27,627 nt of DNA from a virus (Duplodnaviria; Heunggongvirae; Uroviricota; Caudoviricetes). A model generated the notes under the pieces. That model had not been told where the DNA came from and did not search any database. It was given only the letters and a program-made list of their open reading frames with translations. This document shows, piece by piece, positions 1-16,539 of the stretch (position 1 is its first letter; each line of letters opens with the position of its first letter). The position numbers were made by a program, and so were the translations under genes. The stretch lies in IMG/VR virus record IMGVR_UViG_2531839130_000010; one strand, 5' to 3'.

Positions 1-228
1 TTAGCCTTTTTTATTTTGATTTTTAGATTGTTCAATGTGATAATTTAATACTTCTCTCTTTGCCTCTTCATAGGTTAGCTCTCCATTGATTACCTTAGTT
101 TTTATTTCATTAAAAAATGAGGAGCCTTTGGGATCTTTACTTGATAAAAAAAGACTGGCTTCAGCTCTCCGAAAAGCTTCTTTCCTTGCTTCTATAGAAA
201 ATGAATTAGCAGGGTTATTTTTGTTCAT
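1..228 (-). CDS. Small hypothetical protein (75 aa); weak resemblance to YhfG/VbhA-type small antitoxins
   Basis: ORF track, complete with stop at 1-3. Charged helical sequence with a ..AEASL...INGELTYEEAKREVLNYH pattern loosely like Fic-antitoxin family, but the S-x-x-x-E-G inhibitory motif is not evident. Speculative. Confidence 0.3.
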   Translation of the reverse strand: MNKNNPANSFSIEARKEAFRRAEASLFLSSKDPKGSSFFNEIKTKVINGELTYEEAKREVLNYHIEQSKNQNKKG

Positions 229-1105: not shown

Positions 1106-1114
1106 ACAACGTCC

Positions 1115-2188: not shown

Positions 2189-2276
2189 TTCTGTCTGATT
2201 CCTAACGAACTGTGGCAATATTGTGGCAAAAAATCCATTTAAATTCGATAGGTATTGATTTTACAAGATCAATTTA

Positions 2277-2325
2277 CGCATTCGTAATGCGAAGGTCGTA
2301 GGTTCGACTCCTATTATCGGCACCA
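2277..2325 (+). tRNA. 3' fragment (about 49 nt) of a tRNA-Thr(CGU) gene (thrW-like); pseudo-tRNA / att site
   Basis: Readable anticodon stem-loop cgca-TTCGTAA-tgcg (anticodon CGT), T-arm gtagg-TTCGACT-cctat, acceptor 3' strand tatcggc + A + CCA ending at 2325. No complementary 5' acceptor strand (gccgata) upstream, so it is a 3' fragment, not a complete gene. Confidence 0.7.
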
Positions 2326-2328
2326 TCA
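2302..2328 (+). repeat. attL core of the P4-like element: 27-bp direct repeat gttcgactcctattatcggcaccatca (tRNA-Thr 3' end)
   Basis: Exact 27-bp identity with 15192-15218; flanks differ on both sides. Confidence 0.8.
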
Positions 2329-2489
2329 CCTAGTTTTCCCAAGTCAACCCACATCAACAAAATCATTTAAAAACATATATATTACGTTGTTTTCATACGT
2401 TTGAGGTCAACCCTTGTCTCTTGAAATCAACACGCGGTTGGGGGCACAATCAGGGGCATGTTCTGTTCGGTCTAGGAAATGTGCCCCCA

Positions 2490-3680
2490 ATGATGCTGAA
2501 TGCCCGCAAGGTTGAAGCTGCGAAAGGAAAAGAGAAGAGCTACAAGCTGTTTGATGGAGGTGGCCTATACCTTCAGGTCGAACCTAATGGCTCGCGTTAC
2601 TGGCGTATGAAATACCGTTTTGCTGGTAAAGAGAAACGATTGTCCTTTGGTGTTTATCCAACAGTCACACTTGCTGATGCCAGACAAAAACGAGAATACG
2701 CGAAGAAACTACTCGCAGCAGGTGAAGATCCCGGCGAAGTCAAAAAAGCCAAAAAGCAGGCTTTAAATGCAGCGAGTGAGACACTTAACCCATTCAGAGA
2801 AGTGGCGTTAGAGTGGCACAAAATGAAATCACCCAAATGGTCTGAGGGCTATGCTTCCGACATCATTGAGGCATTCGAGAAAGACATTTTCCCGCATATT
2901 GGGCACAGACCTATAGCTGATATTCAGCCCCTTGAACTGCTTGAAGTTCTGAGGTTGATAGAAGCTCGAGGCGCTATGGAGAAAGCGAAGAAAGTCCGTC
3001 AGCGATGCGGTGAAGTTTTTCGCTATGCCATCGTAACGGGTAGGGCAATCTACAATCCGGCACCGGATCTTGCCAGTGCGATGCAAGGACATGAAGCAGT
3101 CCACTATCCATTCCTCAAAGCCAACGAACTACCGGAGTTCTTTAATGCCCTTAATTCTTATTCAGGAAGTCCAATTGTATTGTTGGGGGCGCATTTACTT
3201 ATCCTGACAGGTCTACGAACTGGAGAACTACGAGCAGGTGAGTGGCGAGAGGTGGATTTTGATAATGCGGTGTGGGAGATCCCAAAAGAACGTATGAAAA
3301 TGCGTAGGAGCCATATTGTCCCGTTGTCAAAACAAGCATTATCCCATCTCAAAAGTTTGAAAGAACTAACTGGGAACTACCCGCTGATGTTCCCTGGACG
3401 CAACGATCCCAGCAAATTTATGAGTGAAGCAAGCATTAATCAGGTGTTTAAACGTATTGGATATGCAGGGCGTGTTACGGGGCATGGTTTCAGGCATACG
3501 ATGAGTACAATCCTACATGAGAAAGGATTTAACAGCGCTTGGATTGAAACCCAGCTTGCTCATTCGGACAAAAACTCTATTCGTGGAATTTATAACCATG
3601 CCCAATATCTCGAAGGGAGAAGAGAAATGATGCAATGGTATGCTAATTATTTATCTGAGCAAATTGGTACTCATAAATGA
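2490..3680 (+). CDS. int: P4-type tyrosine integrase (about 396 aa from the ATG at 2490)
   Basis: N-terminal P4-integrase signature KVEAAKGKEKSYKLFDGGGLYLQVEPNGSRYWRMKYRFAGKEKRL; catalytic HGFRHTMST (HxxR) and C-terminal Tyr region. Track start 2421 is a TTG. Confidence 0.9.
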   Translation: MMLNARKVEAAKGKEKSYKLFDGGGLYLQVEPNGSRYWRMKYRFAGKEKRLSFGVYPTVTLADARQKREYAKKLLAAGEDPGEVKKAKKQALNAASETLNPFREVALEWHKMKSPKWSEGYASDIIEAFEKDIFPHIGHRPIADIQPLELLEVLRLIEARGAMEKAKKVRQRCGEVFRYAIVTGRAIYNPAPDLASAMQGHEAVHYPFLKANELPEFFNALNSYSGSPIVLLGAHLLILTGLRTGELRAGEWREVDFDNAVWEIPKERMKMRRSHIVPLSKQALSHLKSLKELTGNYPLMFPGRNDPSKFMSEASINQVFKRIGYAGRVTGHGFRHTMSTILHEKGFNSAWIETQLAHSDKNSIRGIYNHAQYLEGRREMMQWYANYLSEQIGTHK

Positions 3681-4501
3681 ATATTTTAAAAATTAATAAT
3701 ACTGATTCTCTGCTCAGAGATTACTACCAGTTGGATGAAGCTTCAGAAAAAATTGGTTGTAGTGAAAAGGATATACTCTGGTTTGCCAGAGAACGAGATG
3801 TAGAGCTATGCATGGAATTCCATGATGATGAGTATGATGTTTCATGTGGTTTGAAGATTGATGGTCAAATAGATGAGTTCTTATCTAATCTGAAATATTT
3901 ACCACGAGATAGAAATGGCAATATTATGTTGTCAGACTTAAGTTCTATAAGAATCCCTGATGAAGATAATTTAATTGATAAAAATGGTTTTATTCGATGC
4001 TTCATATCCGGTTTATGGGCTGTTGATTATGAATATAAAGATCTGTTAGTTAAGCATGAGGGGCAACCGGATTCCTGGCCTATTCATTTTCTACTGGCGG
4101 GTACGCCTAATATAAATTGTAAGGTAATTCTTTATGTAAATTATGATGAAAAAGAAAATTATTATCTTTTTGAGGTTTTGTGGATTACAAAGGTACAGAT
4201 TCAAAAATTCATTGATATAGTCTTATGCGAACAAAAGCGGATAAAAAACGCCAATAAATATAAATCACAATCTGAGGCGCAAAAACAAAAACATGCTGTT
4301 CCTCGAGCTGAAATACTCATGGCTATTATTTCGCTCTATCATCGTGATATGAGGCTAAGAAGAGAGAGTCCAGCAGCGATAGCTGATTATCTTTTTCAAC
4401 ATGCCAGTGAGTTCTGGCCTAAGACCGGAGAACCGCCTTTGAGCTATGATACTGTTGTTAGTTTGCTACGTAGTTGCATGAAAAACATTAAGTTTAACTA
4501 A
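3677..4501 (+). CDS. Hypothetical protein (274 aa), AT-rich orphan cargo gene between int and alpA
   Basis: ORF track; ATG overlaps the int stop (ATGA); composition visibly more AT-rich than the flanking P4-like backbone; no motif I can recognise. Confidence 0.5.
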   Translation: MNILKINNTDSLLRDYYQLDEASEKIGCSEKDILWFARERDVELCMEFHDDEYDVSCGLKIDGQIDEFLSNLKYLPRDRNGNIMLSDLSSIRIPDEDNLIDKNGFIRCFISGLWAVDYEYKDLLVKHEGQPDSWPIHFLLAGTPNINCKVILYVNYDEKENYYLFEVLWITKVQIQKFIDIVLCEQKRIKNANKYKSQSEAQKQKHAVPRAEILMAIISLYHRDMRLRRESPAAIADYLFQHASEFWPKTGEPPLSYDTVVSLLRSCMKNIKFN

Positions 4502-4626
4502 ATATTAACAATTGTTGTGGCTAATGATTTTGAATTTTTTTCATTAGTCACATTTTTCTCATTTATAACCTATGTTTTAATTTTCCGTGTTGAAGCCAAT
4601 AGACTTAGATAAACGGAGAATGATGA

Positions 4627-4917
4627 ATGTTATCTAAACATGATAATACTACTTTGCAACGACCTTCAATGGATTCTCTGATCGATATGAAGTTTATTAC
4701 TTCCAATTGTTTATTAAGTGATAAATGGATTTATCGATTGATTTCTCTGAATCGCTTTCCAAAACCTATAAAAATAGGTCGGATGTCACGATGGCGCGCT
4801 GCTGATTATTATAAGTGGCGAGATGGGTTTGAAGAAAACTCAGGTCAACAGTTTGAGGGGATGAGAAATAAGGCAAGAGCAATTAATAAAGGGAATAGAT
4901 TATCACCTACTCCCTAA
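4627..4917 (+). CDS. alpA: AlpA-family phage transcriptional regulator / excisionase-like protein
   Basis: Core LLSDKWIYRLISLNRFPKPIKIGRMSRWRAADYYKWRD resembles AlpA-type HTH (RFPKP motif, conserved W after HTH); GGAG RBS 8 nt upstream of the ATG. Confidence 0.7.
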   Translation: MLSKHDNTTLQRPSMDSLIDMKFITSNCLLSDKWIYRLISLNRFPKPIKIGRMSRWRAADYYKWRDGFEENSGQQFEGMRNKARAINKGNRLSPTP

Positions 4918-4949
4918 GCCTTAATTGATAGTTAGTAATATTTAACTGA

Positions 4950-5123
4950 TTAGCCTTTAGGGTCAATCCCGCGTGATTGGAGTTCTTTGCGTAAAATTCT
5001 TTTAATCCAAGTTGCCAACGCGCTATCTCCATCTTTGCGCATTTCGTTTTCGAGTTGCAACCTAAAATCGTCGGTAAGACGCATTTGGAATGGTGGAGAA
5101 CGTTTCTCTTGTGGTGTTGACAT
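4950..5123 (-). CDS. Small ribbon-helix-helix (Arc/MetJ-like) DNA-binding protein, 57 aa (below ORF-track cutoff)
   Basis: Manual translation of minus strand: MSTPQEKRSPPFQMRLTDDFRLQLENEMRKDGDSALATWIKRILRKELQSRGIDPKG; beta-strand then two helices typical of RHH. The overlapping plus-strand ORF 4987-5187 looks non-protein-like. Confidence 0.5.
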   Translation of the reverse strand: MSTPQEKRSPPFQMRLTDDFRLQLENEMRKDGDSALATWIKRILRKELQSRGIDPKG

Positions 5124-5163
5124 GGTAATTACCCTAGAATATGATGACTACATGGTAATTACC
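5117..5163 (+). promoter_or_regulatory. Candidate sigma70 promoter (TTGACA-17 bp-TATGAT) with two copies of the palindrome GGTAATTACC (operator-like)
   Basis: TTGACA 5117-5122, TATGAT 5140-5145; 15-mer direct repeat (g/t)ACATGGTAATTACC at 5119-5133 and 5149-5163, each containing the perfect 10-bp palindrome GGTAATTACC, 30 bp apart; overlaps the start of the RHH gene. Confidence 0.45.
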
Positions 5164-5254
5164 ATTGTAAGTATAGTTCGCTTGTAAAAGCAATGCCCGA
5201 TTGTGCGGGAACACAAATCGGGCATTTAACCAACCGTTATAAGAGGTAACGAAG

Positions 5255-5431
5255 ATGGCTAAACAGAAGTGTACCTGGTTATTTGCGGCGATCAACCGCA
5301 GTCAACGCAATGCCCGTCCTGTGATGTTAAGGATCACCGCAGATAACGAGCGGTCAGCGCGGCGCAGACTTGCCCCGGACTATGTACTGAGCTTTGCCGG
5401 GCGCATTCCCTGCGGAGGTGAACATGCGTAA
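5255..5431 (+). CDS. Small protein (58 aa), possibly Icd/Ash-like P4-family protein
   Basis: Manual translation MAKQKCTWLFAAINRSQRNARPVMLRITADNERSARRRLAPDYVLSFAGRIPCGGEHA; AAGAGG RBS upstream. Family assignment is from memory only. Confidence 0.45.
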   Translation: MAKQKCTWLFAAINRSQRNARPVMLRITADNERSARRRLAPDYVLSFAGRIPCGGEHA

Positions 5432-5783
5432 TTATCCGCATCCCGGCGAACGCTGGCAGCATGAACGTGGCTGGACGGTCACGATTATCCGATTAATAGA
5501 AGCCTCGCCCTCTGTGGCGCTGGTTAATCCTGAATTCAGCTGTGAAGTGCTGATACGTCATGACAGCGACAACCAGCTTTCTTCCTGCCCTCTGGCATGG
5601 TTTGAACAGCGATATACGCGCCTGTTTGATGTACCACTCTTTAAGCCTGCACCAGCTCCTGCAGGCGGTAGTGGTTCCGGCCCGCTGACACTGCATCCGT
5701 CTGTGCTATTTATCCGCTGGCGGGAGCGTAGCATATGGCGTTCTGCTGAGCCTGATGACGGTCACTATTCAAAGTTTCTCTGA
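5424..5783 (+). CDS. Hypothetical P4-like protein (about 119 aa from the ATG at 5424)
   Basis: ORF track (5394 start is a TTG); ATG at 5424 has a GGAGGTG RBS and overlaps the upstream stop (ATGCGTAA), suggesting translational coupling. Confidence 0.5.
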   Translation: MRNYPHPGERWQHERGWTVTIIRLIEASPSVALVNPEFSCEVLIRHDSDNQLSSCPLAWFEQRYTRLFDVPLFKPAPAPAGGSGSGPLTLHPSVLFIRWRERSIWRSAEPDDGHYSKFL

Positions 5784-5814
5784 CACAATACCGCTGAAAA
5801 CGGAGTAATCCACG

Positions 5815-6099
5815 ATGAATATTTCAAACGGGCACAACGGTGCTCAGGGCCACACTTTGCCTGAAAAACACAATACCGGTGTTTTTGCCTATGGGTTGTC
5901 AGAGGACAGTTTCGGAAAGCTGACCCGCGCAAGAAATGCCTGCGACATGCTCCAGCTTCTCTTTTCTGAATACCCGTCTCAGGCCGGAGCACTGGACACT
6001 GGCTGTGCGCATGGTGTCGCCGCGCTGATGGAGTACCTGCTGGCAGATTTGACGGATATTGCACACAGCTGCGCACTGATTGAAGGAGGTGCCAGATGA
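5815..6099 (+). CDS. Hypothetical protein (94 aa)
   Basis: ORF track; GGAG RBS; stop overlaps next start. Confidence 0.5.
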   Translation: MNISNGHNGAQGHTLPEKHNTGVFAYGLSEDSFGKLTRARNACDMLQLLFSEYPSQAGALDTGCAHGVAALMEYLLADLTDIAHSCALIEGGAR

Positions 6100-6479
6100 A
6101 CCAGCCGCAGGTTTCCATTTTCCCGGCAGAAATGACCACCGCGCTTTACCGGCGGGCTATTGCTTCAGCATGGCGGCAGAAAATGCTGAACGAAACTGGC
6201 AGTGATCAGTATGGTCCGCACAGCCTGACGGTGGAGCGTATTGAAATGGCCATTGCGCTGCATATCGAGTGCGTACTGATTAACGAGTACGGCGAAGCAC
6301 AGGGCGCCGCTGCCGCGCTGGCACTGCTGACTGACATGCTGGAGCCGTCACTGCTGACCGCGCCGCCGGTACTGACCGCGCGCGGCTGTGAAGTGATGGC
6401 GGAGATGTACCGCACGCTTCCGGCGGCCTTTGATGACTTCTGCAGTACCGGTGTGACGTTGTATCAGGGGGAAGTATGA
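6096..6479 (+). CDS. Hypothetical protein (127 aa)
   Basis: ORF track; AGGAGG RBS; ATGA overlaps with neighbours on both sides (operon). Confidence 0.5.
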   Translation: MNQPQVSIFPAEMTTALYRRAIASAWRQKMLNETGSDQYGPHSLTVERIEMAIALHIECVLINEYGEAQGAAAALALLTDMLEPSLLTAPPVLTARGCEVMAEMYRTLPAAFDDFCSTGVTLYQGEV

Positions 6480-9148
6480 CAATACAGACGGTTACGCAGA
6501 TTTCAGCCGCCGCACGGGGGAAATGGCCCGTTATTCTCCAGATGCTGCGTATTGATGTACCTGAAAACGGCAGGCACGGTCCCTGCCCGAAATGTGGGGG
6601 CAAGGATCGTTTTCGCCTTGATGACCTTGACGGGCGCGGGACGTGGATCTGCAGCCAGTGTGGCAATGGTGACGGTCTGGATCTGGTTAAGCTCGTAACC
6701 GGTTACAGCATCAGAAAGGCTGCGCAGGAGGTGGCGCAGGTGCTTAATGTGCCGGATGTGCAGGAACTGCCTGTTAAGCCTGCCAGACAAAAAGCCCCTA
6801 AACGCGACATGGGTCTTACCGTGGCGGCGCTGATGAAAGAGAGCCACACGGGAGAAAGCGCCTATCTGACAGGAAAAGGGTTCGCCGGATACCCGGCCTC
6901 TCTGACCGGAAGCGTGCAGCATATCAGCGGTAAGGATTTTCCTGCCGGTTCCCTGCTGTTACCACTCACGACCAACACCGGAGCCGTGACTGGTGCACAG
7001 CTTATCGCCCCGACGGGTGAAAAAAGCATACTGCCCGGCAGCACGATGAAAGGCGCGTTTGTGTCGCTCAGCCCGTTACCGTCTGAACCACCGGTACAGG
7101 TGGTGATTACCGAAGGTTACGCTACGGCGCTGACGGTAAGTCAGCTCACTGCCGGATGCGTAGTGGCTGCCATATCTGCGGGCAACCTGCCCAATGTGGC
7201 GCAGTCGCTGCGGGCACGCTGGCCTGAGGTAAAAATTATCATCGCCGGTGATAACGATTTTCAGGACGGAGGTGAGAATCCCGGCAGAGCCTTTGCTGAA
7301 CGGGCGGCAAAAGCTGTTGGCGGCTGGATGACGCTGCCACCAGGAGAGATTAAGGCTGACTGGAATGACTTTCATCGGGAGCACGGTATTACCCGTGCCC
7401 GTGAAGCCTTTCGCAACGGTCTGGTACTGTGCGGGGAAGGCCGCACGCAACTGCCGCACGGGTTCCGTCTTACCCAGGAATATCTCTGGTATGAAAAGCA
7501 GGTACAGCGCAACGGTGAGACGGAGATCCAGAACGTCAAAATATGCAGCCCGCTGCGCGTGACGGCAATCACCTGCGATGCCGATGGCGGTAACTTCGGA
7601 CGACTGCTGGAATGGGAAGATACGTGGGGTGAGTGTCGCCGCTGGGCGATGCCGATGGAAATGCTGAGCGGCAGTGGTGAGGAACTGCGCCGGGTACTGC
7701 TGGTTAACGGGCTGTCTTATATCAGCACCACCGGTGAGGCACGCGCACGCCTGATGGAATATATCTCACTGTGTAAACCGGAACGCCGCGTGACCTGCGT
7801 CAGTCGTACTGGCTGGCATGGTCAGGTTTACGTCCTGCAGGATGAGGTCAGCGGTGAAGGTGCAGAGGGTGTCATTCTCCAGACCACTTCCGTGCAGGGG
7901 CGTGATTTCCGCGTGTCGGGCACAACAGAGGAATGGCGGGAGCATGTATCCCGCTACTGTACCGGCAACTCCCGCGTGGCATTTGCTGTCAGCCTGGCCT
8001 TTGCTGCACCACTGTTACGGCTGGTTGGTATGGACGGCGGCGGCTACCACCTCAAAGGGGAATCGACAGACGGTAAGACCACCACCATGAAAGCGGCAAC
8101 CTCCGTCTGCGGCGGGCCTGACTACTGGCAGACATGGCGGGCCACCGGCAACGCGCTGGAGGGATGCGCCAGCCGCCGCAACGATGCCGCCATGATGCTT
8201 GATGAGATCCGGGAAGTTGACGGACGCGAGGCAGGCAATATCGCCTACATGCTGGCAAACGGTCAGGGCAAGGGCCGTGCCGGTACGGACGGTGAGCTGC
8301 GTACCCGTAAGCAGTGGCGCCTGTTGTTCTTTTCAACTGGCGAGTTGTCTCTGACCGAACATGCGGCAAAGGCCGGTGAGCGTACTTTTGCCGGGATGGA
8401 AGTCAGGATGATCCAGATCCCCAGCGATTCCGGGAAGTTTGGCGTTTTTGAGGAGCTGCACGGCTTCGACAGCGGCAAGGCTCTGGCAGAGCATCTTGAA
8501 TGGGCCACGTCCTGCTACTACGGTTCGCCGTTCCGGGAGTGGCTGAAAGCACTGACCGCTGATCTTAACGGACTAACGGCACAGGCAAAATCGCTGATGA
8601 AGGAATATGCTGCCGCCCTGACTCCGAAAGATGCAGGCAATCAGGTGGGCCGGGCTGTGAACCGCTTTGCTCTGGTGGCGATGGCAGGTGAACTGGCAAC
8701 CCGTCTGGGTATCACCGGCTGGCCTGAGGGTGAAGCACTGCGGGCAACCCGCGTCTGCCTGAACGCATGGCTGAAAGATCGCGGGCACACCGCCAATCAG
8801 GAAGATATCGCCGCACTGGAGCAGGTTCGCAGTTTCTTCACCGCGAATCAGTACAGCCGCTTTGCAGACTGGTATGACGAGCGCAACCGCCCCGGCAATA
8901 TGGTGGGCTGGCGCAGGGTGGAGAAAGGCAGTACCGCGCAGGGCACGGAAGCTGTCACTACGTTCTATGTCATGCCGTCCGGCTGGAAAGAAATCTGCAG
9001 GGGATTTGACCCGCGCAAGGTGGCGCGTCTGTGCGCAGATCGTGGATACCTGCTGCCCTCCACTGATGGCAAACTCCAGACAACCATTCGCCCGCCAGAG
9101 ATGAATCCCCGCAGGCTCTATGTCTTCAACAGCGAGGTGCCGGGTTAA
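6476..9148 (+). CDS. P4 alpha-type primase-helicase (890 aa)
   Basis: N-terminal zinc-binding CPKCGGKD...CSQCG; Toprim-like VVITEGYATA ... IIIAGDNDFQDGGENPG; C-terminal helicase Walker A GESTDGKTT and Walker B-like MMLDEIRE. Confidence 0.9.
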   Translation: MTIQTVTQISAAARGKWPVILQMLRIDVPENGRHGPCPKCGGKDRFRLDDLDGRGTWICSQCGNGDGLDLVKLVTGYSIRKAAQEVAQVLNVPDVQELPVKPARQKAPKRDMGLTVAALMKESHTGESAYLTGKGFAGYPASLTGSVQHISGKDFPAGSLLLPLTTNTGAVTGAQLIAPTGEKSILPGSTMKGAFVSLSPLPSEPPVQVVITEGYATALTVSQLTAGCVVAAISAGNLPNVAQSLRARWPEVKIIIAGDNDFQDGGENPGRAFAERAAKAVGGWMTLPPGEIKADWNDFHREHGITRAREAFRNGLVLCGEGRTQLPHGFRLTQEYLWYEKQVQRNGETEIQNVKICSPLRVTAITCDADGGNFGRLLEWEDTWGECRRWAMPMEMLSGSGEELRRVLLVNGLSYISTTGEARARLMEYISLCKPERRVTCVSRTGWHGQVYVLQDEVSGEGAEGVILQTTSVQGRDFRVSGTTEEWREHVSRYCTGNSRVAFAVSLAFAAPLLRLVGMDGGGYHLKGESTDGKTTTMKAATSVCGGPDYWQTWRATGNALEGCASRRNDAAMMLDEIREVDGREAGNIAYMLANGQGKGRAGTDGELRTRKQWRLLFFSTGELSLTEHAAKAGERTFAGMEVRMIQIPSDSGKFGVFEELHGFDSGKALAEHLEWATSCYYGSPFREWLKALTADLNGLTAQAKSLMKEYAAALTPKDAGNQVGRAVNRFALVAMAGELATRLGITGWPEGEALRATRVCLNAWLKDRGHTANQEDIAALEQVRSFFTANQYSRFADWYDERNRPGNMVGWRRVEKGSTAQGTEAVTTFYVMPSGWKEICRGFDPRKVARLCADRGYLLPSTDGKLQTTIRPPEMNPRRLYVFNSEVPG

Positions 9149-9182
9149 GGCTTTGCGTGAGTCTTATTTATTAAGGGTAACA

Positions 9183-9370
9183 GGTGAAACAGGTGGAACA
9201 ACCGTATTTTACAGGGCTGAACCTGTTCCACCTTCTGAAATAGTGAGGTGGAACAGATGTAACGCCAGCCAATCCGCTGTTCCACCTTGTTACCCGCGAT
9301 GTTCCACCGGTGCAGTGTATATAAATGTCTTATAAAACAAAGCTGTAACACATGTTTCACCTGTTCCACC
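9183..9370. repeat. Iteron cluster: 8 copies of TGTT(C/T)CACC in both orientations (candidate crr/ori-type replication element)
   Basis: Copies at 9183-9191(-), 9192-9200(-), 9224-9232(+), 9247-9255(-), 9278-9286(+), 9300-9308(+), 9353-9361(+), 9362-9370(+), immediately downstream of the primase gene. Confidence 0.6.
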
Positions 9371-9458
9371 GCATCAGGGACATAAAGCAGACTGAAACAG
9401 AGGGCATTTTTATCTGGCTGGCTTTCATAGCCACGTCTGAATAACCGCAAGCGCCCGT

Positions 9459-9514
9459 TGTGCCAGCCACCACACACTGAACACCGATAGTGTGCTTGTG
9501 TCAGCCACGACACA
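9459..9514 (+). promoter_or_regulatory. Two TGT-N12-ACA dyads (Ogr/Delta-type activator boxes) upstream of the sid-like gene; candidate late promoter
   Basis: TGTgccagccaccacACA at 9459-9476 and TGTgtcagccacgacACA at 9497-9514, sharing a cagccac core; the sid-like ATG is at 9549. Confidence 0.4.
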
Positions 9515-9548
9515 ATTGACGTAACGAACCAACCCGACAGGAGAAGTC

Positions 9549-10292
9549 ATGAACAATACCGCAGTAAATAACAACCTTTCCACTTTTCCGGCTGTAACGC
9601 AGCGGGCACTGGAAACCATGAACACAGCCAGAAACGCATGGCTTGAAGCACGTCGTCAGCAGAAAGCGGCAGCGGATAATATTGCGACAATCCGCCAGCG
9701 TCGCGCTGAAATGGAAGCCACGACGAACACACTGAATGAGGAGTGGCGCACGCTGTTTCGTGAAAGTCAGGGCGTGGTCTCAAAGGAAATGAAAAAACTG
9801 CGCACGGAAATTGCGCTGGGACGAGAAACGCTTGAGGATTTTGATGAGCTGCTGGCGGCTCAGGAAAGCGAAAATGCACTTTTGCCGCAGAAAGCTGCAG
9901 AATTAGCCGGAAAGTATATCCACGCGCATAACATTCTTGTGGATATTCGCGCAAAACAAATCTGGGAGGATTTTATGCAGTCGCATGGAAAAGCGCTTAT
10001 TCAGACGCTGAGCCTGCTTAAATCCACAATGGGCCGGGAAGCCAGTGCCGTTGTGGGTGTGGTGAATTCAGTTAATGACCCGGACACAGTGCTGAAAGAC
10101 TTTATTCATAAACATATCACCAGACCGGCTCTGGCTAACGATGCGATGCCTGAGCAGGACCCGGTGTTTAAACTGGCGGGAGTTGCCCCGGATTATGCGG
10201 CGCGTCTGGATTTCAGTAATCAACTCTCTCCGGCAGCTATGCATAAAATTAAGGTTCGTCAGGAACTTGCTGAGAAGGAGAAAGCAGTATGA
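9549..10292 (+). CDS. Sid-like (capsid size determination) protein candidate, 247 aa
   Basis: Position after primase/iterons and before psu-like and delta genes; size close to P4 Sid; helical, charged sequence; AGGAGA RBS. No motif-level proof. Confidence 0.4.
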   Translation: MNNTAVNNNLSTFPAVTQRALETMNTARNAWLEARRQQKAAADNIATIRQRRAEMEATTNTLNEEWRTLFRESQGVVSKEMKKLRTEIALGRETLEDFDELLAAQESENALLPQKAAELAGKYIHAHNILVDIRAKQIWEDFMQSHGKALIQTLSLLKSTMGREASAVVGVVNSVNDPDTVLKDFIHKHITRPALANDAMPEQDPVFKLAGVAPDYAARLDFSNQLSPAAMHKIKVRQELAEKEKAV

Positions 10293-10840
10293 CGGCCCGA
10301 GGCACGCCTGACCAGGCACTTACCAGTTTTCGGAATGCCCGCATTCTGTGGGCCGGACATAATGAGAGCCGAAAAGCCGTTGAACAACAGATAACATCTC
10401 TCCTCGCTGCCACAGAAAAACCAGCAGATTATGCCCGACAGCTCGAATTACTGCGGGAACGTCTGGATGTGCTGAAATGGCAAATTAACTGTGCTGCGCG
10501 CGAATGCATTTACTCGCAGCATTTACTGATGGAGGCCTGCACAGAAGCCGCTCTCAGCAATTTTATGCAGGCGAATGGGGCAGCCCTGACATCTGCACTG
10601 GCTCCGTTCCTGAAGGGGCGCGGAGGGGTTGACGTTGCGTCCCGTATATTACGCAGTGCTCTGGTTCGCCAGCTGGCAATAACACCGCCTGAAATTGCTG
10701 GGGATTATCGTGAGATCCTGGATGAATCCGGTTTGATGCCTGACCCCGGGATGATTCGTGATTGCCAGGGTTCTTACACCCCGGCACAACATCTGCGTTT
10801 TCAGCAACGCCTGAATGACATTAACGATATACAGGAGTGA
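10289..10840 (+). CDS. Psu-like (polarity suppression) protein candidate, 183 aa
   Basis: Size and position next to the Ogr/Delta gene as in P4-like elements; AGGAGA RBS; start overlaps upstream stop. Assignment by synteny only. Confidence 0.4.
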   Translation: MTARGTPDQALTSFRNARILWAGHNESRKAVEQQITSLLAATEKPADYARQLELLRERLDVLKWQINCAARECIYSQHLLMEACTEAALSNFMQANGAALTSALAPFLKGRGGVDVASRILRSALVRQLAITPPEIAGDYREILDESGLMPDPGMIRDCQGSYTPAQHLRFQQRLNDINDIQE

Positions 10841-10845
10841 TATTA

Positions 10846-11118
10846 ATGGCACTTAAATGTCCGGAATGCGGTACAGTTGCACACGCCAGAACAGCAGCCT
10901 ATGAAGCTCCGTCAGTTAAACGCTCGTGGTATCAGTGCCAGAATCTGGAATGTTCCTGCACATTTACGGCACTGGAGAGTGTGGATAAGATAATCATGAA
11001 ACCCCGGCGCAATGAACAGGAACCAGACAAATCACAACCCCCGGTAAAACAACAGCAAACGCTCAATCGCTATGGCTCCGCGTCAAAACTGTCAAGCCGT
11101 CAGCAGATTCCTGTCTGA
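10846..11118 (+). CDS. Ogr/Delta-family zinc-finger late-gene transcriptional activator (90 aa from ATG 10846)
   Basis: MALKCPECGTVAHARTAAYEAPSVKRSWYQCQNLECSCTF has the C-x2-C ... C-x4-C spacing and HART motif of P2 Ogr / P4 Delta; AGGAG RBS 8 nt upstream. Track start 10837 is a GTG. Confidence 0.8.
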   Translation: MALKCPECGTVAHARTAAYEAPSVKRSWYQCQNLECSCTFTALESVDKIIMKPRRNEQEPDKSQPPVKQQQTLNRYGSASKLSSRQQIPV

Positions 11119-11141
11119 TTAGAAAAAAACGCCCACGTAAT

Positions 11142-11165
11142 CCCGGTCGAGTACCGGGATTTTTA
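11142..11165 (+). terminator. Rho-independent terminator after the delta gene
   Basis: Hairpin cccggt-cgagt-accggg followed by aTTTTT. Confidence 0.6.
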
Positions 11166-11512
11166 ACACCTTTTCCCTGGCTGGCCTGAGAGCGTATGAG
11201 TGCATGTCTATGGCGCATGAAAATGCATGAGTCTTATGCACCCTTTTTGAGGCGAAAACCTTTGTGTGGTGGTATCTGAGACGATTTATGGCATGCATGA
11301 AAACCAGTCTGTTAAGCGAAGCGGGCAGGCGTGCGGGGCTGCCCGCGTAAGGGCGTTGAATGGTATAACTATGGCACGGTTACCGCATGTTTTGAGCTGT
11401 AATCGAAGTTATGAAAATTACTATATAAAGCGGTCGCTGTTGTGGAGATACGATTGCGGGAAGTGATGGAAAGAGCTATAAAAAGTACAGAGGATAGTTT
11501 AATGAGGGTATT

Positions 11513-12790
11513 ATGAACCGTCAGCCGTTTACTTCAGCAGCACTTAAACGAAACTTAAGTGAAAGTGAGAAGGCTTATTATTTTAAAAAAAATAATGTTG
11601 CTGAGTTAGAATCATTAATTAGTGATGCCGTTTTAATTGCTAATGAGAATTTTCGCTCTGGTGTGAGTGTAAAGAAACTAAATATTAAGGGACGCTGCGT
11701 TTACACTGCTTCATGTTTGAAGGAAAAAATAATACTTAGACATTGCAATGCAAATTTAAAATGCCTTGAATCGCTTCGTCCCAAACAACGAAATACAATA
11801 ATTAGTGAGCTTAAAATTTATTTGGAAGAAGGTACTCCATTCAAAATATATCGTTTGGATATAAAGTCTTTCTTTGAATCAATTGATTTACCGCAGCTTT
11901 TTCAGCTCTTACATAACGAAACACGACTGTCTAGACATACAAAAAATTTGCTAGAATGGTATCTTAAATCGTGTGAAAGGCTTCACTCTTCGAAAGGATT
12001 ACCTAGAGGGTTAGAAATTAGTCCTATGTTATCAGAATTGTACTTGGCACAATTTGATAATAGTATTCATAGGCATCCAGAAGTATTTTATTATTCAAGA
12101 TTTGTAGATGATATGGTAATCGTTTCAAGTGGTTGTGAATGTGAAGCGTCCTTTATGGAATTTATACAAGATGTATTACCAAAGGGATTGGCTTTAAATA
12201 AAAATAAATTAAAAATATCTCCATGCATACCAAAGAGAAGTAAGGGTTTAAATAAACAGGATAAATTGCTTCATGAATTTGACTTTCTAGGGTACTCGTT
12301 TTCTATAATAGACACACCTTTGAGCAAAGATGGTGAGATTAATAGCTGTTACAGAAAGGTTGTTGTTAATTTATCTAAATCTCGCCTGAAGAAAATTAAA
12401 ACAAGAATAGCTAGGTCTTTCTACTCTTATCATATTAATGGTGATTTTAAACTATTGCTAGACAGGATTTCTTTTTTGACTAGTAACAGGGATTTAAATC
12501 GCAAAATAAAATCGTTAAGTTCTTTAGAAAAAAGCAAGATAAGTACAGGTATTTATTACAGTAATGCGAAGTTAGATGTTGACTCCATATCCCTAAAAAA
12601 ATTAGATGACTTTTTGCTATATTGTGTGCAATCTAATACTGGGCGTTTGAATAGTGTTGCAAAAAAACCTTTTAATTTGAAGCAAAAAAAAGAACTGCTA
12701 AGAAATAGTTTTAGAAAAGGCTTTGTGGATAGAGTATATAGAAAGTATAACTTTAAGCGCTATACTGAGATTACAAAAATATGGTTATAA
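11513..12790 (+). CDS. Reverse transcriptase, 425 aa (UG3-like; first gene of a DRT type 3-like pair)
   Basis: RT motifs read directly: YRLDIKSFFESI (motif 1/2), GLPRGLEISPMLSELYL (motif 4), RFVDDMVIV (catalytic motif 5), FLGYSF (motif 7). Strongly AT-rich versus the P4 backbone; stop overlaps next gene start. Confidence 0.8.
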   Translation: MNRQPFTSAALKRNLSESEKAYYFKKNNVAELESLISDAVLIANENFRSGVSVKKLNIKGRCVYTASCLKEKIILRHCNANLKCLESLRPKQRNTIISELKIYLEEGTPFKIYRLDIKSFFESIDLPQLFQLLHNETRLSRHTKNLLEWYLKSCERLHSSKGLPRGLEISPMLSELYLAQFDNSIHRHPEVFYYSRFVDDMVIVSSGCECEASFMEFIQDVLPKGLALNKNKLKISPCIPKRSKGLNKQDKLLHEFDFLGYSFSIIDTPLSKDGEINSCYRKVVVNLSKSRLKKIKTRIARSFYSYHINGDFKLLLDRISFLTSNRDLNRKIKSLSSLEKSKISTGIYYSNAKLDVDSISLKKLDDFLLYCVQSNTGRLNSVAKKPFNLKQKKELLRNSFRKGFVDRVYRKYNFKRYTEITKIWL

Positions 12791-14799
12791 AGAAAAACAT
12801 TAAACTTGATAAGAAAGATTATCTCAGGGCTTTACTATGTGATACACTGCCCGGTGATTGTCCAATTATTTTTTCAAATGATGGCTTATATATAAACTTA
12901 ACAGAATATGATAGAGTTTGTAATGATTTGTTACATTTTACTCCGGTTTCTTCTTTCTTAAAAAAAATAGTTAACCCTAATTTAGACTCTTCTATTAGTG
13001 TCGCAGATCGCCACCGAGAAAAGAAGAAACAAAGCTCCCCATTTGGCTATTGTATAGTAAAAGATGCCTTTAGCCAAAGACATCTTTCTTTAATTCACCC
13101 AAGATCTCAAATTAATTATTCGGAATTTTATAAAACATACTCATCCGTTATCACATTAAATACTTTAAAAAGTAATTTTTCTATTCGCTACCCACGTAAG
13201 GTCGCTAACTCTTTCTTTTTATATGAAAATAATGCTTTGGAAAAATATAAAGGGGAAGATATCGAAACAACAAAGGATGAGTTAATGAGGAAATATTCAT
13301 CCTCTTATTTTAGTTATGGCGGTTTCAACAGGATATATAAACTATTTCAAAGTAAGATGTTTATTGAGCTTGAGAAAAGATTCTCGGTGATGTGGATGTT
13401 AGATGTATCACATTGTTTTGATAGCATATATACGCATTCGGTTTCTTGGGCATTAAAAAATAAATCATATATAAAAAAACATGTTAAACACAGCAATCAA
13501 TTTGGACAAGAATTAGATACACTGATGCAACGTAGCAATAATAATGAAACAAATGGAATACCTATTGGTTCAGAGTTTAGCAGGGTTTTTGCAGAATTAA
13601 TATTTCAGCGAATTGATTGCAATATTGAGTCATGCCTTCTTAGTGAACATGGATGGGTTAATAATAAAGATTATGTTATATTGAGATATGTAGATGATTT
13701 TATTGTTTTTTGTAATGGTGAGTCAAGTGCCGAAGTTATTACAAAAATAATTAATGTGAAGTTAAATGAATATAATCTACAATTAAATGTAAACAAGCTT
13801 AAGAAGTATTCTAGGCCATTTTGCACTAGCAAGACAAGTTTGATTGTCAAAGTTAATGAATTAATTCGCAATTTAGAAATTAAACTGTATGAAAAACGTG
13901 ATAGTGGCTTTACTTTAAATAAAATAAGAAGTAAGCATGATTTAAAGATATATGTAATTAATCATGTCAAGTCTATATGCATTGAAAATCAAGTGTCTTA
14001 TTCTGATGTTTCATCATATATAATATCATCTCTTTCCAAAAGATTAATATCAATAATTGATATATTACGAGTTCAAGAAAATGAAGATGATGTAGATGTA
14101 AAAAAAAGGATTAAGGACTTAATTTTCACAATAACCGATATTATGTTGTTCTTTTTCAGTGTTAACCCAACTGTTTCATCATCTTATAAATTATCAAAGA
14201 CAATGGTTGTTGTTAATAACTATTTGAATGAAATATCTAGTGACTATAGTAGTATTTTTATGACTACGTTAGTGAATGCTGCGGAAAACATTAATTTTGG
14301 TGAGAATGATAATGGGCTGTTTATTGATGATTTCATTTCAATTGAAAAGGTTAATTTAATCTTGGCTGCTACTTTTTTTGGAGATAATTATCTTATAAGT
14401 GACAGTTTTTTTCATGGAGTTATACATAAAAAGAAATTGGACTACTTTACTATAATCTCACTGCTATTCTATTTTAGAAACAGAAGATCATTCCGAAAAT
14501 TGAAGTGTATAATAGAGGGTGAAATAAAGGAAATATTAAGTTCTAATATGGATTTGCTGCAATCATCGGAAAAGGCACATTTATTTTTGGATGTCATGTC
14601 ATGTCCATTTGTCTCAATAGAGACAAGGCGTTTTTTATATAGAAAATATCTCAAGAGCTATGAGCCAAAGCTGAACAGAAGTCATCTGGAGATTGAGAAT
14701 GATTTGCAATCTCTGCTTCAAACATATTGGTTTGTCAAGTGGGATGAGTTAGATATTGTGAAAATGATTGAGAAAAAAGAATTGAAAGAAAGCTATTAA
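12781..14799 (+). CDS. Reverse transcriptase, 672 aa (UG8-like; second gene of a DRT type 3-like pair)
   Basis: RT motifs: MLDVSHCFDSI (motif 2), GIPIGSEFSRVFAELIF (motif 4), RYVDDFIVF (catalytic motif 5), LQLNVNKLKKY (motif 6); long N- and C-terminal extensions; 10-bp overlap with the upstream RT gene. Confidence 0.8.
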   Translation: MVIKKNIKLDKKDYLRALLCDTLPGDCPIIFSNDGLYINLTEYDRVCNDLLHFTPVSSFLKKIVNPNLDSSISVADRHREKKKQSSPFGYCIVKDAFSQRHLSLIHPRSQINYSEFYKTYSSVITLNTLKSNFSIRYPRKVANSFFLYENNALEKYKGEDIETTKDELMRKYSSSYFSYGGFNRIYKLFQSKMFIELEKRFSVMWMLDVSHCFDSIYTHSVSWALKNKSYIKKHVKHSNQFGQELDTLMQRSNNNETNGIPIGSEFSRVFAELIFQRIDCNIESCLLSEHGWVNNKDYVILRYVDDFIVFCNGESSAEVITKIINVKLNEYNLQLNVNKLKKYSRPFCTSKTSLIVKVNELIRNLEIKLYEKRDSGFTLNKIRSKHDLKIYVINHVKSICIENQVSYSDVSSYIISSLSKRLISIIDILRVQENEDDVDVKKRIKDLIFTITDIMLFFFSVNPTVSSSYKLSKTMVVVNNYLNEISSDYSSIFMTTLVNAAENINFGENDNGLFIDDFISIEKVNLILAATFFGDNYLISDSFFHGVIHKKKLDYFTIISLLFYFRNRRSFRKLKCIIEGEIKEILSSNMDLLQSSEKAHLFLDVMSCPFVSIETRRFLYRKYLKSYEPKLNRSHLEIENDLQSLLQTYWFVKWDELDIVKMIEKKELKESY

Positions 14800-14972
14800 T
14801 TTGATAAATATGAGTCGTGGTCAGTTTCAAAATACTTACGTCATCGTCGTCGGTGTATTTTATATCGATTATGAAGACGATTTCGCTGGAACTGAAATCG
14901 GCTTGAATGCTTAAACTTAAGCTAAAAAAACAGTTTGAGACCAAAGCCTAAATTATTAGGCTTTGGATTTTC
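14800..14972 (+). ncRNA. Candidate structured non-coding RNA downstream of the RT pair, ending in a terminator hairpin
   Basis: No credible ORF; local self-complementarity (atcgtcgtc ... gaagacgat); ends with hairpin ccaaagcct-aaattatt-aggctttgg plus ATTTT at 14941-14971. Purely a candidate. Confidence 0.2.
14941..14971 (+). terminator. Rho-independent terminator downstream of the RT operon
   Basis: Perfect 9-bp stem ccaaagcct/aggctttgg, 8-nt loop, followed by aTTTT. Confidence 0.55.
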
Positions 14973-15191
14973 AGGTTCAGTTGAGAGTAATTGCTGTCTG
15001 TTTATTGCTTAACCAATACAGTTAGTGGTGCTTACACACCTGATGTTGAGAAACTGACCACACCAATACAACCTTTTGTTTGTCTTCAACTGTGTAGACT
15101 ACTAAACACGAATCAGCAGTTAGGGGCATGTATGGGGGCATTGGTTTTAATTTTTTATAAAATATCAATTTTTTCATATTGTTAAGTTATT

Positions 15192-15218
15192 GTTCGACTC
15201 CTATTATCGGCACCATCA
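15192..15218 (+). repeat. attR core of the P4-like element: second copy of the 27-bp tRNA-Thr 3'-end repeat
   Basis: Exact copy of 2302-2328; no tRNA body upstream of it. Confidence 0.8.
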
Positions 15219-15821
15219 AGAAAATCAATAACTTAGCTTAACTTCTCTAAGAAATTGTATCTTCTGTTATCACTTACAAACGCCTATACGTTGTTATGGG
15301 CTTTGGTAGTGTAACACGTATGGGCGAGTAGTTCCCAGGCTCAACCTCGTAACAAGTTCCTTTGAAGCTGGAAGACGTGCCACCGTCTCTAAACCTTCTA
15401 CCAAAACTCTTAGCAAGATGTTCCACACCTGGCGCGGTGTCCAATGATGCTACACGTCGTGAGACGTTGCAGAGGATAAACAGGCTAAATGATGGGAAGA
15501 GTTTTAAGTGCAATAGTGGATTAAAGCCCACCTCTTCAAAACCTAACTTGATCGGGAAAGAATCAAGCTCTAGCACGGTTTCGTCCACCGGAGTACAACG
15601 GGTGCCTGATAAGAGAAGAACTGCTAAGACTTCATAGCTTTTGTGAAAAAGCCCTTTTTAGTGGATACGCCTACGGCGCTTATTTTTTGGTATAACCATC
15701 AAAGGCGCTTTATGGCTCCTATTGTCTTGAAAATGTATCTTTACTTGTATTGTGTTTTATGCGTAGCCTTCCTGTGTAGTATGTAACTTGTTCATTTTCA
15801 TATGAATACAGAGGCAACACG

Positions 15822-15974
15822 ATGAAAAACATTGCAGCTATCAAACGTAATAACCGCAAGATTCACGCTCGTAAGTTCCTGTCTACGCCAGAAGGAAAAG
15901 CCTGGCTAGAGCGTAAACAGCGAGAGAACGAAGAAAGAAAACTCCTTAGTGAGTTGAAATGGCTTAAGGATTGA
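15822..15974 (+). CDS. Small basic hypothetical protein (50 aa; below ORF-track cutoff)
   Basis: Manual translation MKNIAAIKRNNRKIHARKFLSTPEGKAWLERKQRENEERKLLSELKWLKD; GAGG-like RBS about 9 nt upstream. Confidence 0.3.
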   Translation: MKNIAAIKRNNRKIHARKFLSTPEGKAWLERKQRENEERKLLSELKWLKD

Positions 15975-16539
15975 ACCACCAGTAGGCGCATAACACATCC
16001 AGCGATCAAAGATGTGTTTATGCACCTGATAGTGAAATTATTAAAGTCGTTTAGTTAACATCGCCATTGCTTGAGCAATAATTGCAACAGCGTCCATCTC
16101 TTCACTGGAAGCGATGCAAATGCGGTAACTAATAGCCACAACGAATACATCAATAACGAGAAAGTGAATAGTGTGAAGATGTTTTGAAAGTAAATGCATA
16201 ACTTCCTCCGGTTTTACGATAGGAAGATTAGAACATGCATTAAATGATGTTACAAGGGTGGTAATTTACCCTAATAGTCTACTATTCACCTCAATCTACG
16301 TCAACCAATATTTGATGTAGATTTAATTTTCTTTTAAAAACAATATGTTGCAATTTGTTGAATTTTGGGGTTAGGTTGTTTTTTGAACGTTTTCATCAAG
16401 TGTAAAGATACGTTTAGCCTTCATAGTGAGTTCAGTTACTGTCTTTTTCTCTGAAATCGGCGCAGACGTGATCAATGTTTAACGCGAAGATCAGCGGCGT
16501 CAGGTCCACGCAGCGACAATTCTCAAATATCAGGAGGCA

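What the first reader, a model, noticed from the sequence alone, without database searches (positions are those of the whole stretch)
14800..14972. Candidate non-coding RNA partner of the RT pair
About 170 nt between the second RT stop and a strong terminator hairpin (14941-14971) has no credible ORF but shows local self-complementarity. Defence RTs of this superfamily usually use a cognate structured ncRNA as template or scaffold, encoded next to the RT genes. I cannot tell from sequence alone which side holds it; the GC-rich 11170-11512 stretch upstream of RT1 is the alternative.
Basis: inference. Interest (0 to 1): 0.6.

Follow-up and report, generated by a model that had tools for sequence, protein, structure and literature searches.

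The report
DRT3 defence ncRNA, boundaries corrected
The stretch after the second reverse-transcriptase gene is the front two-thirds of the already known DRT3 defence RNA. That RNA runs about 90 bases past the supposed terminator to reach its conserved ACACAC template, so this is an ordinary member of a known system with corrected borders.

Summary
The two RT genes are Drt3a/UG3 (11513-12790) and Drt3b/UG8 (12781-14799), so the locus is a DRT3 anti-phage system carried on a P4-like satellite.

DRT3 is known to need an ncRNA encoded just downstream of drt3b. Its ACACAC loop templates poly(dTdG) synthesis by Drt3a.

- Fourteen homologous loci (Drt3b 50-90% identical, several genomic contexts) are conserved from the drt3b stop to about window 15064.
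- A covarying 12-bp closing helix pairs 14817-14828 with 15050-15061. A second covarying helix pairs 14883-14889 with 14977-14984.
- Both helices span the 14941-14971 hairpin. That hairpin is therefore an internal, variable stem-loop: it has no U-tract in most relatives and is absent in three.
- The invariant template ACACAC lies at 15034-15039, outside the reported interval.
- An ACACAC follows drt3b on the sense strand in 76 of 78 DRT3 loci.

The upstream alternative (11170-11512) is not supported. It does not fold better than shuffled sequence, about half of it is satellite backbone, and only a promoter-like element is conserved.

Verdict: a real element, already known in kind and ordinary, spanning about 14817-15061.

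The parts
11513..12790 (+). drt3a (UG3, Class 2 RT), 425 aa; catalytic motif reads FVDD. Predicted user of the ncRNA template.
   Evidence: PADLOC Drt3a E = 6e-131. RefSeq annotates an identical locus as drt3a. 32% identical to EcoDRT3a, with FVDD aligned to its YVDD.
12781..14799 (+). drt3b (UG8, Class 1 RT), 672 aa. It keeps R268 and the C-terminal Y672, which correspond to EcoDRT3b R241 and the priming Y666. It has D26 where EcoDRT3b has E22.
   Evidence: PADLOC Drt3b E = 8e-204. BLASTP against EcoDRT3b gives 31% identity. Residue roles are from bioRxiv 10.64898/2026.05.04.722794.
14817..15061 (+). DRT3 ncRNA core, from closing helix to closing helix, about 245 nt. The true 5' and 3' ends are not determined.
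   Evidence: Conserved in 14 loci. Consensus structure: 37 pairs, 95.9% of cells paired against 34-43% for slid controls, 18 pairs with compensatory changes, 0 of 500 shuffles as good. MFE z = -7.9. In three E. coli genomes homology covers only 14806-15064.
14817..14828 (+). P1 5' strand, GTGGTCAGTTTC
   Evidence: Pairs with 15050-15061. All 12 bp are present, 5 pairs show compensatory changes, and 98.2% of cells are paired. Coordinates.
14839..14879 (+). P2 stem-loop. The 4-bp base is conserved and the extension varies in length.
   Evidence: The base covaries at 3 of 4 pairs. The extension forms a hairpin in every homolog despite different sequences, and is short in L090, L093, L096 and L097.
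14883..14889 (+). P3 5' strand, TCGCTGG. It pairs with 14977-14984.
   Evidence: 7 pairs, 3 with compensatory changes, 91.8% of cells paired. This helix encloses P4, P5 and the variable stem-loop.
14900..14911 (+). P4 small hairpin within the conserved AAATCGGCTT segment
14917..14938 (+). P5 hairpin (TTAAGC / GTTTGA) with an A-rich loop
   Evidence: 4 of 5 pairs show compensatory changes.
14941..14972 (+). Variable internal stem-loop, an 11-bp stem followed by ATTTTC.
   Evidence: It is a hairpin of unrelated sequence in 11 homologs and is absent in 3. The T-run occurs only in the window and L084. The terminator scan did not call it.
14977..14984 (+). P3 3' strand, inside the invariant GTTGAGAG block
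14985..15033 (+). P6 stem-loop immediately 5' of the template. The base pairs 14985-14990 with 15028-15033, and the extension is variable.
   Evidence: It sits where 'stem-loop 4' sits next to the template in EcoDRT3.
15034..15039 (+). ACACAC, the predicted template for poly(dTdG) synthesis. It lies within the invariant GCTTACACACCTGATGTTGAG block.
   Evidence: Invariant in all 14 clade members and in relatives with about 40% Drt3b identity. An ACACAC follows drt3b on the sense strand in 76 of 78 loci. The template role was shown for EcoDRT3.
15050..15061 (+). P1 3' strand, GAAACTGACCAC. Conservation ends 1-3 nt later.
11452..11487 (+). Promoter-like element upstream of drt3a (ATTGCG, 17 nt, TATAAA). 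It is the only conserved part of the upstream flank.
   Evidence: Alignment of 10 upstream regions. Coordinates are approximate and function is inferred.

Best explanation
Window 14817-15061 encodes the non-coding RNA of a DRT3 (UG3+UG8) anti-phage system. The reported interval 14800-14972 is its 5' portion.

The RNA folds into a multi-branched structure. A long-range helix (P1) closes it by pairing the first bases after the drt3b stop with bases just 3' of the template.

The invariant single-stranded ACACAC (15034-15039) lies between P6 and the P1 3' strand.

By analogy with the experimentally characterised EcoDRT3 (inferred, not shown here):
- Drt3a binds this RNA and copies the ACACAC repeatedly, by template slippage, into poly(dTdG).
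- Drt3b makes the complementary poly(dCdA) without a nucleic-acid template, primed from its C-terminal tyrosine.
- The strands anneal into dsDNA that RecBCD normally removes.
- Phage inhibition of RecBCD lets the dsDNA accumulate and triggers abortive infection.

Shown here: locus identity, conservation, covariation, the boundaries of the conserved unit, and presence of the template motif and key Drt3b residues.
Inferred: transcription, RNA ends, protein binding, DNA products and defence.
For: - Drt3a and Drt3b are identified with E = 6e-131 and 8e-204, and RefSeq annotates them the same way.
- The literature places the ncRNA downstream of drt3b, with ACACAC as the template for poly(dTdG). Mestre 2022 describes a globally conserved, exposed 'CACACA' motif at a variable distance from the UG8 end.
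- In 78 DRT3 loci with enough downstream sequence, 76 have a sense-strand ACACAC within 450 nt. GTGTGT is almost absent.
- In the window's clade the motif sits at +222 to +243 after the stop, which is 15034 in the window.
- The alignment of 14 loci from different contexts is conserved from the stop to the P1 3' strand and then diverges abruptly.
- RNAalifold gives 6 helices and 37 pairs. 95.9% of cells are paired against 34-43% in slid controls, 18 pairs carry compensatory changes, and 0 of 500 shuffles reach the observed values.
- The single-sequence MFE of 14814-15068 reproduces P1-P5, with z = -7.9.
- A covariance model built from the clade finds the same element immediately after drt3b in six loci outside its training set, with Drt3b about 40% identical (E from 1.8e-10 to 0.026).
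- Drt3b keeps R268 and Y672, and Drt3a keeps the catalytic DD.
Against: - There are no expression data for this locus.
- The clade model does not detect the experimentally defined EcoDRT3 ncRNA, even with filters off. The link to the characterised RNA therefore rests on position, architecture and the template motif, not on alignable sequence. This matches the reported lack of inter-group similarity.
- No intrinsic terminator follows P1 in the window, unlike EcoDRT3, so the 3' end is unknown.
- The window's internal hairpin is strong and followed by UUUU. Some transcripts could stop there and would lack the template.
- In the single-sequence MFE the ACACAC is partly inside a 4-bp hairpin. That hairpin is not in the consensus structure.
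- Drt3b has Asp where EcoDRT3b has the gatekeeper Glu22.
Confidence: 0.9

Rival explanations
1. One reading: a self-contained ncRNA of about 170 nt occupies 14800-14972 and ends at an intrinsic terminator at 14941-14971.
For: The interval folds well on its own (z = -6.9). The hairpin has an 11-bp stem followed by ATTTTC. EcoDRT3's ncRNA is of similar length (161 nt) and does end in a terminator.
Against: The interval lacks the family's universal ACACAC. P1 and P3 pair bases inside it with bases beyond it, with covariation. Conservation continues to 15064. The hairpin is variable, lacks a T-run in most relatives and is missing in three. The terminator scan did not call it.
Confidence: 0.04
2. 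The internal hairpin plus U-run in this E. coli variant works as a partial or conditional terminator. It would set how much full-length, template-bearing ncRNA is made, as a regulatory layer on top of the standard DRT3 RNA.
For: The window and its closest relative L084 carry ATTTTC directly after an unusually stable stem (-16.1 and -10.8 kcal/mol). Other relatives do not.
Against: Only 4 U follow the stem. The same position is an ordinary variable stem-loop in the rest of the clade, and the flanking bases are needed for P3. No data exist on termination.
Confidence: 0.05
3. The cognate ncRNA lies upstream of drt3a, in 11170-11512. This arrangement is seen in Terrabacteria UG8 systems, UG2 and UG28.
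For: A 394-nt non-coding gap precedes drt3a. Upstream ncRNAs exist in other DRT types.
Against: Folding is no better than shuffles (z = -0.72). The first ~180 nt are generic satellite backbone present in 855 E. coli genomes. Clade relatives share only a promoter-like element of about 80 nt. There is no ACACAC in this stretch, and the covariance model finds nothing there.
Confidence: 0.01
4. The conserved downstream sequence is satellite attachment-site or 3'-UTR DNA rather than a functional RNA.
For: The locus sits at the end of a P4-like satellite, next to a tRNA 3'-end fragment at 15194-15217. GGGGCAT repeats at about 15116-15140 look like integrase arm sites.
Against: The 14817-15061 unit is also conserved next to drt3b in loci flanked by unrelated genes (a nucleoside transporter, adh_short, MFS/DUF1198, DUF3761), where the att-like part is absent. 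Compensatory base changes indicate selection on RNA pairing.
Confidence: 0.01

Closest known systems
EcoDRT3 ncRNA (E. coli ECOR12, 161 nt; bioRxiv 10.64898/2026.05.04.722794). The DRT3 6:6:6 Drt3a-Drt3b-ncRNA complex attributed to Deng et al. 2026 in the reviews read; PDB 9z6y/9z6z hold Drt3a and Drt3b chains, and their link to that paper is my inference.
   Same: Both are encoded on the sense strand directly after drt3b. In both, a closing helix starts about 15-18 nt after the stop and its 3' strand lies just after the template. ACACAC is single-stranded, preceded by a stem-loop. The partner proteins are Drt3a and Drt3b. Both loci sit in P4-like satellites.
   Different: About 245 nt against 161 nt, with three expanded stem-loops. 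The sequence after the template differs (CCUGAUGUUGAG against UAUUGCC). No terminator follows P1. The proteins are only 31-32% identical. The clade covariance model does not detect the EcoDRT3 RNA. The window's proteins score higher against the 9z6y chains than against 26cz.
UG8-downstream ncRNA groups 1-17 of Mestre et al. 2022 (NAR, PMC9226505)
   Same: Canonical UG3-UG8-ncRNA order in Proteobacteria, group-specific structures, a shared exposed 'CACACA' motif at a variable distance from the RT end, and no inter-group sequence similarity. All of this matches what was found here.
   Different: I could not check which of their 20 groups, if any, contains this enterobacterial clade. Their supplementary structures were not examined.
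DRT10 (UG17) and DRT9 (UG28) ncRNAs; telomerase RNA
   Same: A short template in a loop next to a boundary stem-loop is copied repeatedly into tandem-repeat or homopolymer DNA by a Class 2 UG RT.
   Different: Those RNAs are encoded upstream of a single RT. The products are other repeats or poly-dA. No second, protein-templated RT is involved.
Retron msr-msd and DRT2 ncRNA
   Same: A structured ncRNA next to a defence RT serves as its template.
   Different: Retrons prime from a 2'-OH branch and copy a defined msd. DRT2 performs rolling-circle synthesis of a gene. Neither uses an ACACAC repeat template or a paired second RT (from established knowledge).

Membership tests
DRT3 (UG3+UG8) system | Adjacent, co-oriented drt3a (UG3) and drt3b (UG8) genes | tested here: met
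   PADLOC E = 6e-131 and 8e-204. The genes overlap by 10 nt on the plus strand. RefSeq annotation agrees.
DRT3 ncRNA | Encoded immediately downstream of drt3b on the same strand | tested here: met
   The conserved structured unit starts 18 nt after the stop. The strand follows from the sense-strand ACACAC and from G-U pairs in the helices.
DRT3 ncRNA | Conserved ACACAC / 'CACACA' template motif | tested here: met
   At 15034-15039, invariant across the clade. Present in 76 of 78 DRT3 loci. One occurrence alone is not above chance in the window (9 found, 9.7 expected). Its significance comes from positional conservation.
DRT3 ncRNA | Motif exposed (unpaired) next to a stem-loop, inside a closing helix | tested here: met
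   It is unpaired in the RNAalifold consensus, between P6 and the P1 3' strand. In the single-sequence MFE it lies partly in a non-conserved 4-bp hairpin.
DRT3 ncRNA | Conserved secondary structure supported by covariation | tested here: met
   18 of 37 pairs have compensatory changes, 95.9% of cells are paired against at most 43% in slid controls, and 0 of 500 shuffles are as good.
DRT3 ncRNA | Similarity, at covariance-model level, to the experimentally defined EcoDRT3 ncRNA | tested here: not met
   Model R1 gives no hit at L100:3601-3761, even with filters off. This is expected from the reported lack of inter-group similarity. The published model itself was not available.
DRT3 ncRNA | Curated RNA-family match | tested here: not met
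   Rfam 15 gives nothing in 10500-16500 at E <= 10 except chance hits elsewhere. No match to any Rfam family was found at the ncRNA position; whether Rfam holds a DRT3 ncRNA family was not checked.
DRT3 ncRNA | Transcribed, bound by Drt3a, templates poly(dTdG), and required for defence | not testable with these tools
   Shown only for EcoDRT3 and the system studied by Deng et al. 2026.
DRT3 system (Drt3b protein templating) | Drt3b residues E22, R241 and priming Y666, plus the YVDD motif | tested here: inconclusive
   R268, Y672 and YVDD are conserved. E22 is replaced by D26, which is invariant in this lineage.
Rho-independent terminator (for 14941-14971) | GC-rich stem followed by a U-tract, conserved as the 3' end of the transcript unit | tested here: not met
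   The scan did not call it (4 T only). The U-run is absent in 9 of 11 relatives that have the hairpin, and the hairpin is absent in 3. Conserved, covarying RNA continues downstream.

The most novel reading that the evidence does not exclude
In this E. coli lineage one internal ncRNA stem-loop (14941-14966 plus UUUU) has evolved into a leaky or conditional terminator. The cell would then make mostly a template-less 5' fragment and switch to full-length, template-bearing DRT3 RNA only under some condition. This would add transcriptional gating to a system otherwise thought to be constitutively active and held in check by RecBCD.
Probability: 0.05. Interest if true: 0.45.

Novelty: already known. 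Interest (0 to 1): 0.2.

Why it matters
It matters mainly for annotation. RefSeq annotates drt3a and drt3b here but not the RNA, and no Rfam family matched it, although the system cannot work without it.

The comparison also shows that the DRT3 RNA tolerates large expansions at three stem-loops around a fixed core: P1, P3, GUUGAGAG and GCUUACACACCUGAUGUUGAG. That is useful for modelling how the RNA scaffolds the Drt3a-Drt3b assembly. No new biology is implied.

Tried and rejected
- **Rfam.** A search of 10500-16500 gave only chance-level hits, none in the element.
- **Telomerase-like template.** I first suspected that GCTTAAACTTAAGC (14909-14922), at the position equivalent to EcoDRT3's template, was a divergent template of 1.8 copies of a 6-nt unit (note). 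I rejected this once the alignment showed that TTAAGC pairs with GYTTRA as helix P5 and that the real ACACAC lies further downstream.
- **Prophage type.** I first read the context as a P2 prophage. The annotation shows a P4-like satellite with integrase, TOPRIM/DUF927 primase, psu and delta.
- **EcoDRT3 subgroup consensus.** RNAalifold on five EcoDRT3-subgroup sequences did not recover their closing helix, because MAFFT misaligned the 5' strands. I did not build a model from it.
- **Shared short strings.** ATCGGCTT..GAATG and TTCGC occur in both the window RNA and the EcoDRT3 RNA but in different order, so I treat them as coincidence.
- **Family-wide closing helix.** A duplex-fold test was noisy. 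It worked for loci with ACACAC more than 100 nt from the stop, but not for those with the motif at +26 to +46.
- **Phage database.** Searches with both flanks found nothing.

Full report
**What is at the locus.** The two overlapping plus-strand ORFs upstream of the finding are 11513-12790 (425 aa) and 12781-14799 (672 aa). They match the PADLOC profiles Drt3a (E = 6e-131) and Drt3b (E = 8e-204). Identical E. coli loci are annotated drt3a/drt3b in RefSeq. The surrounding genes are a frameshifted integrase, an Icd-like protein, a TOPRIM/DUF927 primase, two psu-like proteins and an Ogr/Delta-like protein. This marks a P4-like satellite with DRT3 at its end. Homology between E. coli genomes stops at 15217-15220, directly after a tRNA 3'-end-like sequence.

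**What is already known.**
- Mestre et al. 2022 (PMC9226505) reported that UG3+UG8 systems of Proteobacteria carry an essential ncRNA downstream of UG8. Structures are group-specific, and a globally conserved, exposed 'CACACA' motif sits at a variable distance from the RT end. No other inter-group sequence similarity was seen.
- bioRxiv 10.64898/2026.05.04.722794 mapped the EcoDRT3 ncRNA: 161 nt, starting 15 nt after the stop and ending in a terminator. Its ACACAC loop templates poly(dTdG) synthesis by Drt3a. Drt3b makes poly(dCdA) by protein templating (E22, R241), primed from Y666. The resulting dsDNA is held in check by RecBCD, and phage Gam triggers the response.
- Two reviews summarise a structural study with the same conclusions.

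**Checking the observation.** The interval 14800-14975 folds at -57.5 kcal/mol, z = -6.9, so the self-complementarity is real. The 14941-14966 hairpin exists. The terminator scan does not call it. The interval contains no ACACAC. The only one nearby is at 15034-15039, beyond the hairpin.

**Comparative evidence.**
- I collected 100 loci encoding Drt3b relatives, nearly all with a Drt3a gene upstream.
- Of 78 loci with enough downstream sequence, 76 have a sense-strand ACACAC within 450 nt of the drt3b stop. GTGTGT is almost absent.
- In the window's clade the motif sits at +222 to +243.
- I aligned 14 loci with Drt3b 50-90% identical to the window's. Several lie in unrelated contexts, next to a nucleoside transporter, adh_short, MFS/DUF1198 or DUF3761 genes.
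- Conservation runs from the stop to window ~15064 and then collapses.
- In three E. coli genomes the homology to 14800-15215 covers exactly 14806-15064.

**Structure.** RNAalifold on this alignment predicts six helices.

| Element | Window coordinates |
|---|---|
| P1 | 14817-14828 with 15050-15061 |
| P2 | 14839-14879 |
| P3 | 14883-14889 with 14977-14984 |
| P4 | 14900-14911 |
| P5 | 14917-14938 |
| P6 | 14985-14990 with 15028-15033 |
| Template ACACAC (unpaired) | 15034-15039, between P6 and the P1 3' strand |

Pair counting gives 95.9% of cells paired, against 34-43% when partners are slid. Eighteen of 37 pairs carry compensatory changes, and 0 of 500 shuffles reach any of the observed measures. 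The MFE of 14814-15068 alone reproduces P1-P5 with z = -7.9.

Three stem-loops vary in length and sequence but remain hairpins: the P2 extension, the 14941-14966 hairpin and the P6 extension. The 14941-14966 hairpin is absent in L093, L096 and L097. Only the window and L084 have a T-run after it. It is therefore an internal stem-loop enclosed by P3 and P1, not the end of the RNA.

**Relation to the characterised RNA.**
- A covariance model of the clade (R1) finds the same element right after drt3b in six loci outside its training set, with Drt3b about 40% identical (E from 1.8e-10 to 0.026). These share P1, GUUGAGAG and CACACACCUGAUGYUGAG.
- R1 does not detect the EcoDRT3 ncRNA. The window's proteins are only 31-32% identical to EcoDRT3a and EcoDRT3b.
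- Membership therefore rests on position, strand, closing-helix architecture, the template motif and the partner proteins. That is how the family is defined in the literature.
- Drt3b keeps R268, Y672 and YVDD but has D26 in place of E22. Drt3a has FVDD.
- The PDB Drt3a/Drt3b chains 9z6y score higher against the window's proteins than 26cz does.

**The upstream alternative.** The stretch 11120-11512 folds no better than shuffles (z = -0.72). Its first ~180 nt occur at about 90% identity in 855 E. coli genomes, far more than the ~20 that carry this DRT3. Among clade relatives only the last ~80 nt before drt3a are conserved, as a promoter-like ATTGCG-17 nt-TATAAA element. No ncRNA is supported there.

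**Mechanism.** Most likely (0.9), this is the DRT3 ncRNA. Drt3a would copy ACACAC reiteratively into poly(dTdG), with P6 acting as the template boundary and the rest of the RNA as scaffold. Drt3b would supply poly(dCdA). Everything beyond sequence, conservation and structure is inferred from EcoDRT3.

Open points:
- The RNA's true ends are unknown, and no terminator follows P1.
- The strong internal hairpin with UUUU might terminate a fraction of transcripts.
- It is not known whether Asp26 can act as the gatekeeper.

**Verdict.** Its borders and the 'terminator' reading are wrong, and the upstream alternative is rejected. It is an ordinary member of an already described RNA class, so interest is low.

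Noticed in passing
window 1-15220 (context); 15194-15217: The window is a P4-like satellite, not a full prophage: frameshifted integrase, Icd-like protein, TOPRIM/DUF927 primase, two psu-like genes and Ogr/Delta at 10837-11118. DRT3 occupies the end next to a tRNA 3'-end fragment (GTTCGACTCCTATTATCGGCACCA). ARAGORN finds no intact tRNA in the window. EcoDRT3 (L100) also sits in a P4-like satellite, but next to the integrase.
   Followed up: partly
window 15116-15140: Direct repeats of GGGGCAT (TTAGGGGCATGTATGGGGGCATTGG) are conserved in satellite-borne relatives (L001, L084, L099) and absent from non-satellite DRT3 loci. They are probably integrase arm-type binding sites of the attachment region.
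   Followed up: no
window ~11452-11487: A promoter-like element (ATTGCG, 17 nt, TATAAA) is conserved about 30-60 nt upstream of drt3a across the clade, with further conserved AAAGCGG and ATGCAT-type motifs just upstream. It is the likely operon promoter and operator.
   Followed up: partly
window 12856-12858 (Drt3b D26) and Drt3a residues 187-190: Drt3b has Asp where EcoDRT3b has the nucleotide-gatekeeper Glu22. This Asp is invariant in the 23-sequence alignment of this lineage. Drt3a's catalytic motif reads FVDD rather than YVDD.
   Followed up: partly
window 14923-14932 (P5 loop) and the same loop in L090, L091, L093, L095: The P5 hairpin loop reads like a degenerate copy of the template motif in relatives (GACACACUA, GACAGACUU, GAUAGACUU). 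In the window it is UAAAAAAACA. It could be a vestigial duplicate template or a protein-binding mimic. This is unexplained.
   Followed up: no
L020-L080 (metagenomic DRT3 loci, Drt3b ~28% identical): In about 40 distant DRT3 loci the ACACAC lies only 26-46 nt after the drt3b stop, and no closing helix was detectable. Either the RNA's 5' part overlaps the drt3b coding region or the architecture differs. L010 and L077 have no ACACAC within 450 nt.
   Followed up: partly
window 11170-11350: This GC-rich stretch, with repeated (G)CATGAAAA and ATGCAT motifs, is shared at about 90% identity with 855 E. coli genomes. It is generic P4-like satellite backbone downstream of delta, preceded by a terminator-like hairpin at about 11130-11165.
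   Followed up: partly
window 15062-15110: No intrinsic terminator follows the ncRNA's closing helix, unlike EcoDRT3. Only a weak ACAA/UUGU hairpin with a U-rich tail is present. How the 3' end of the RNA is formed is unknown.
   Followed up: no
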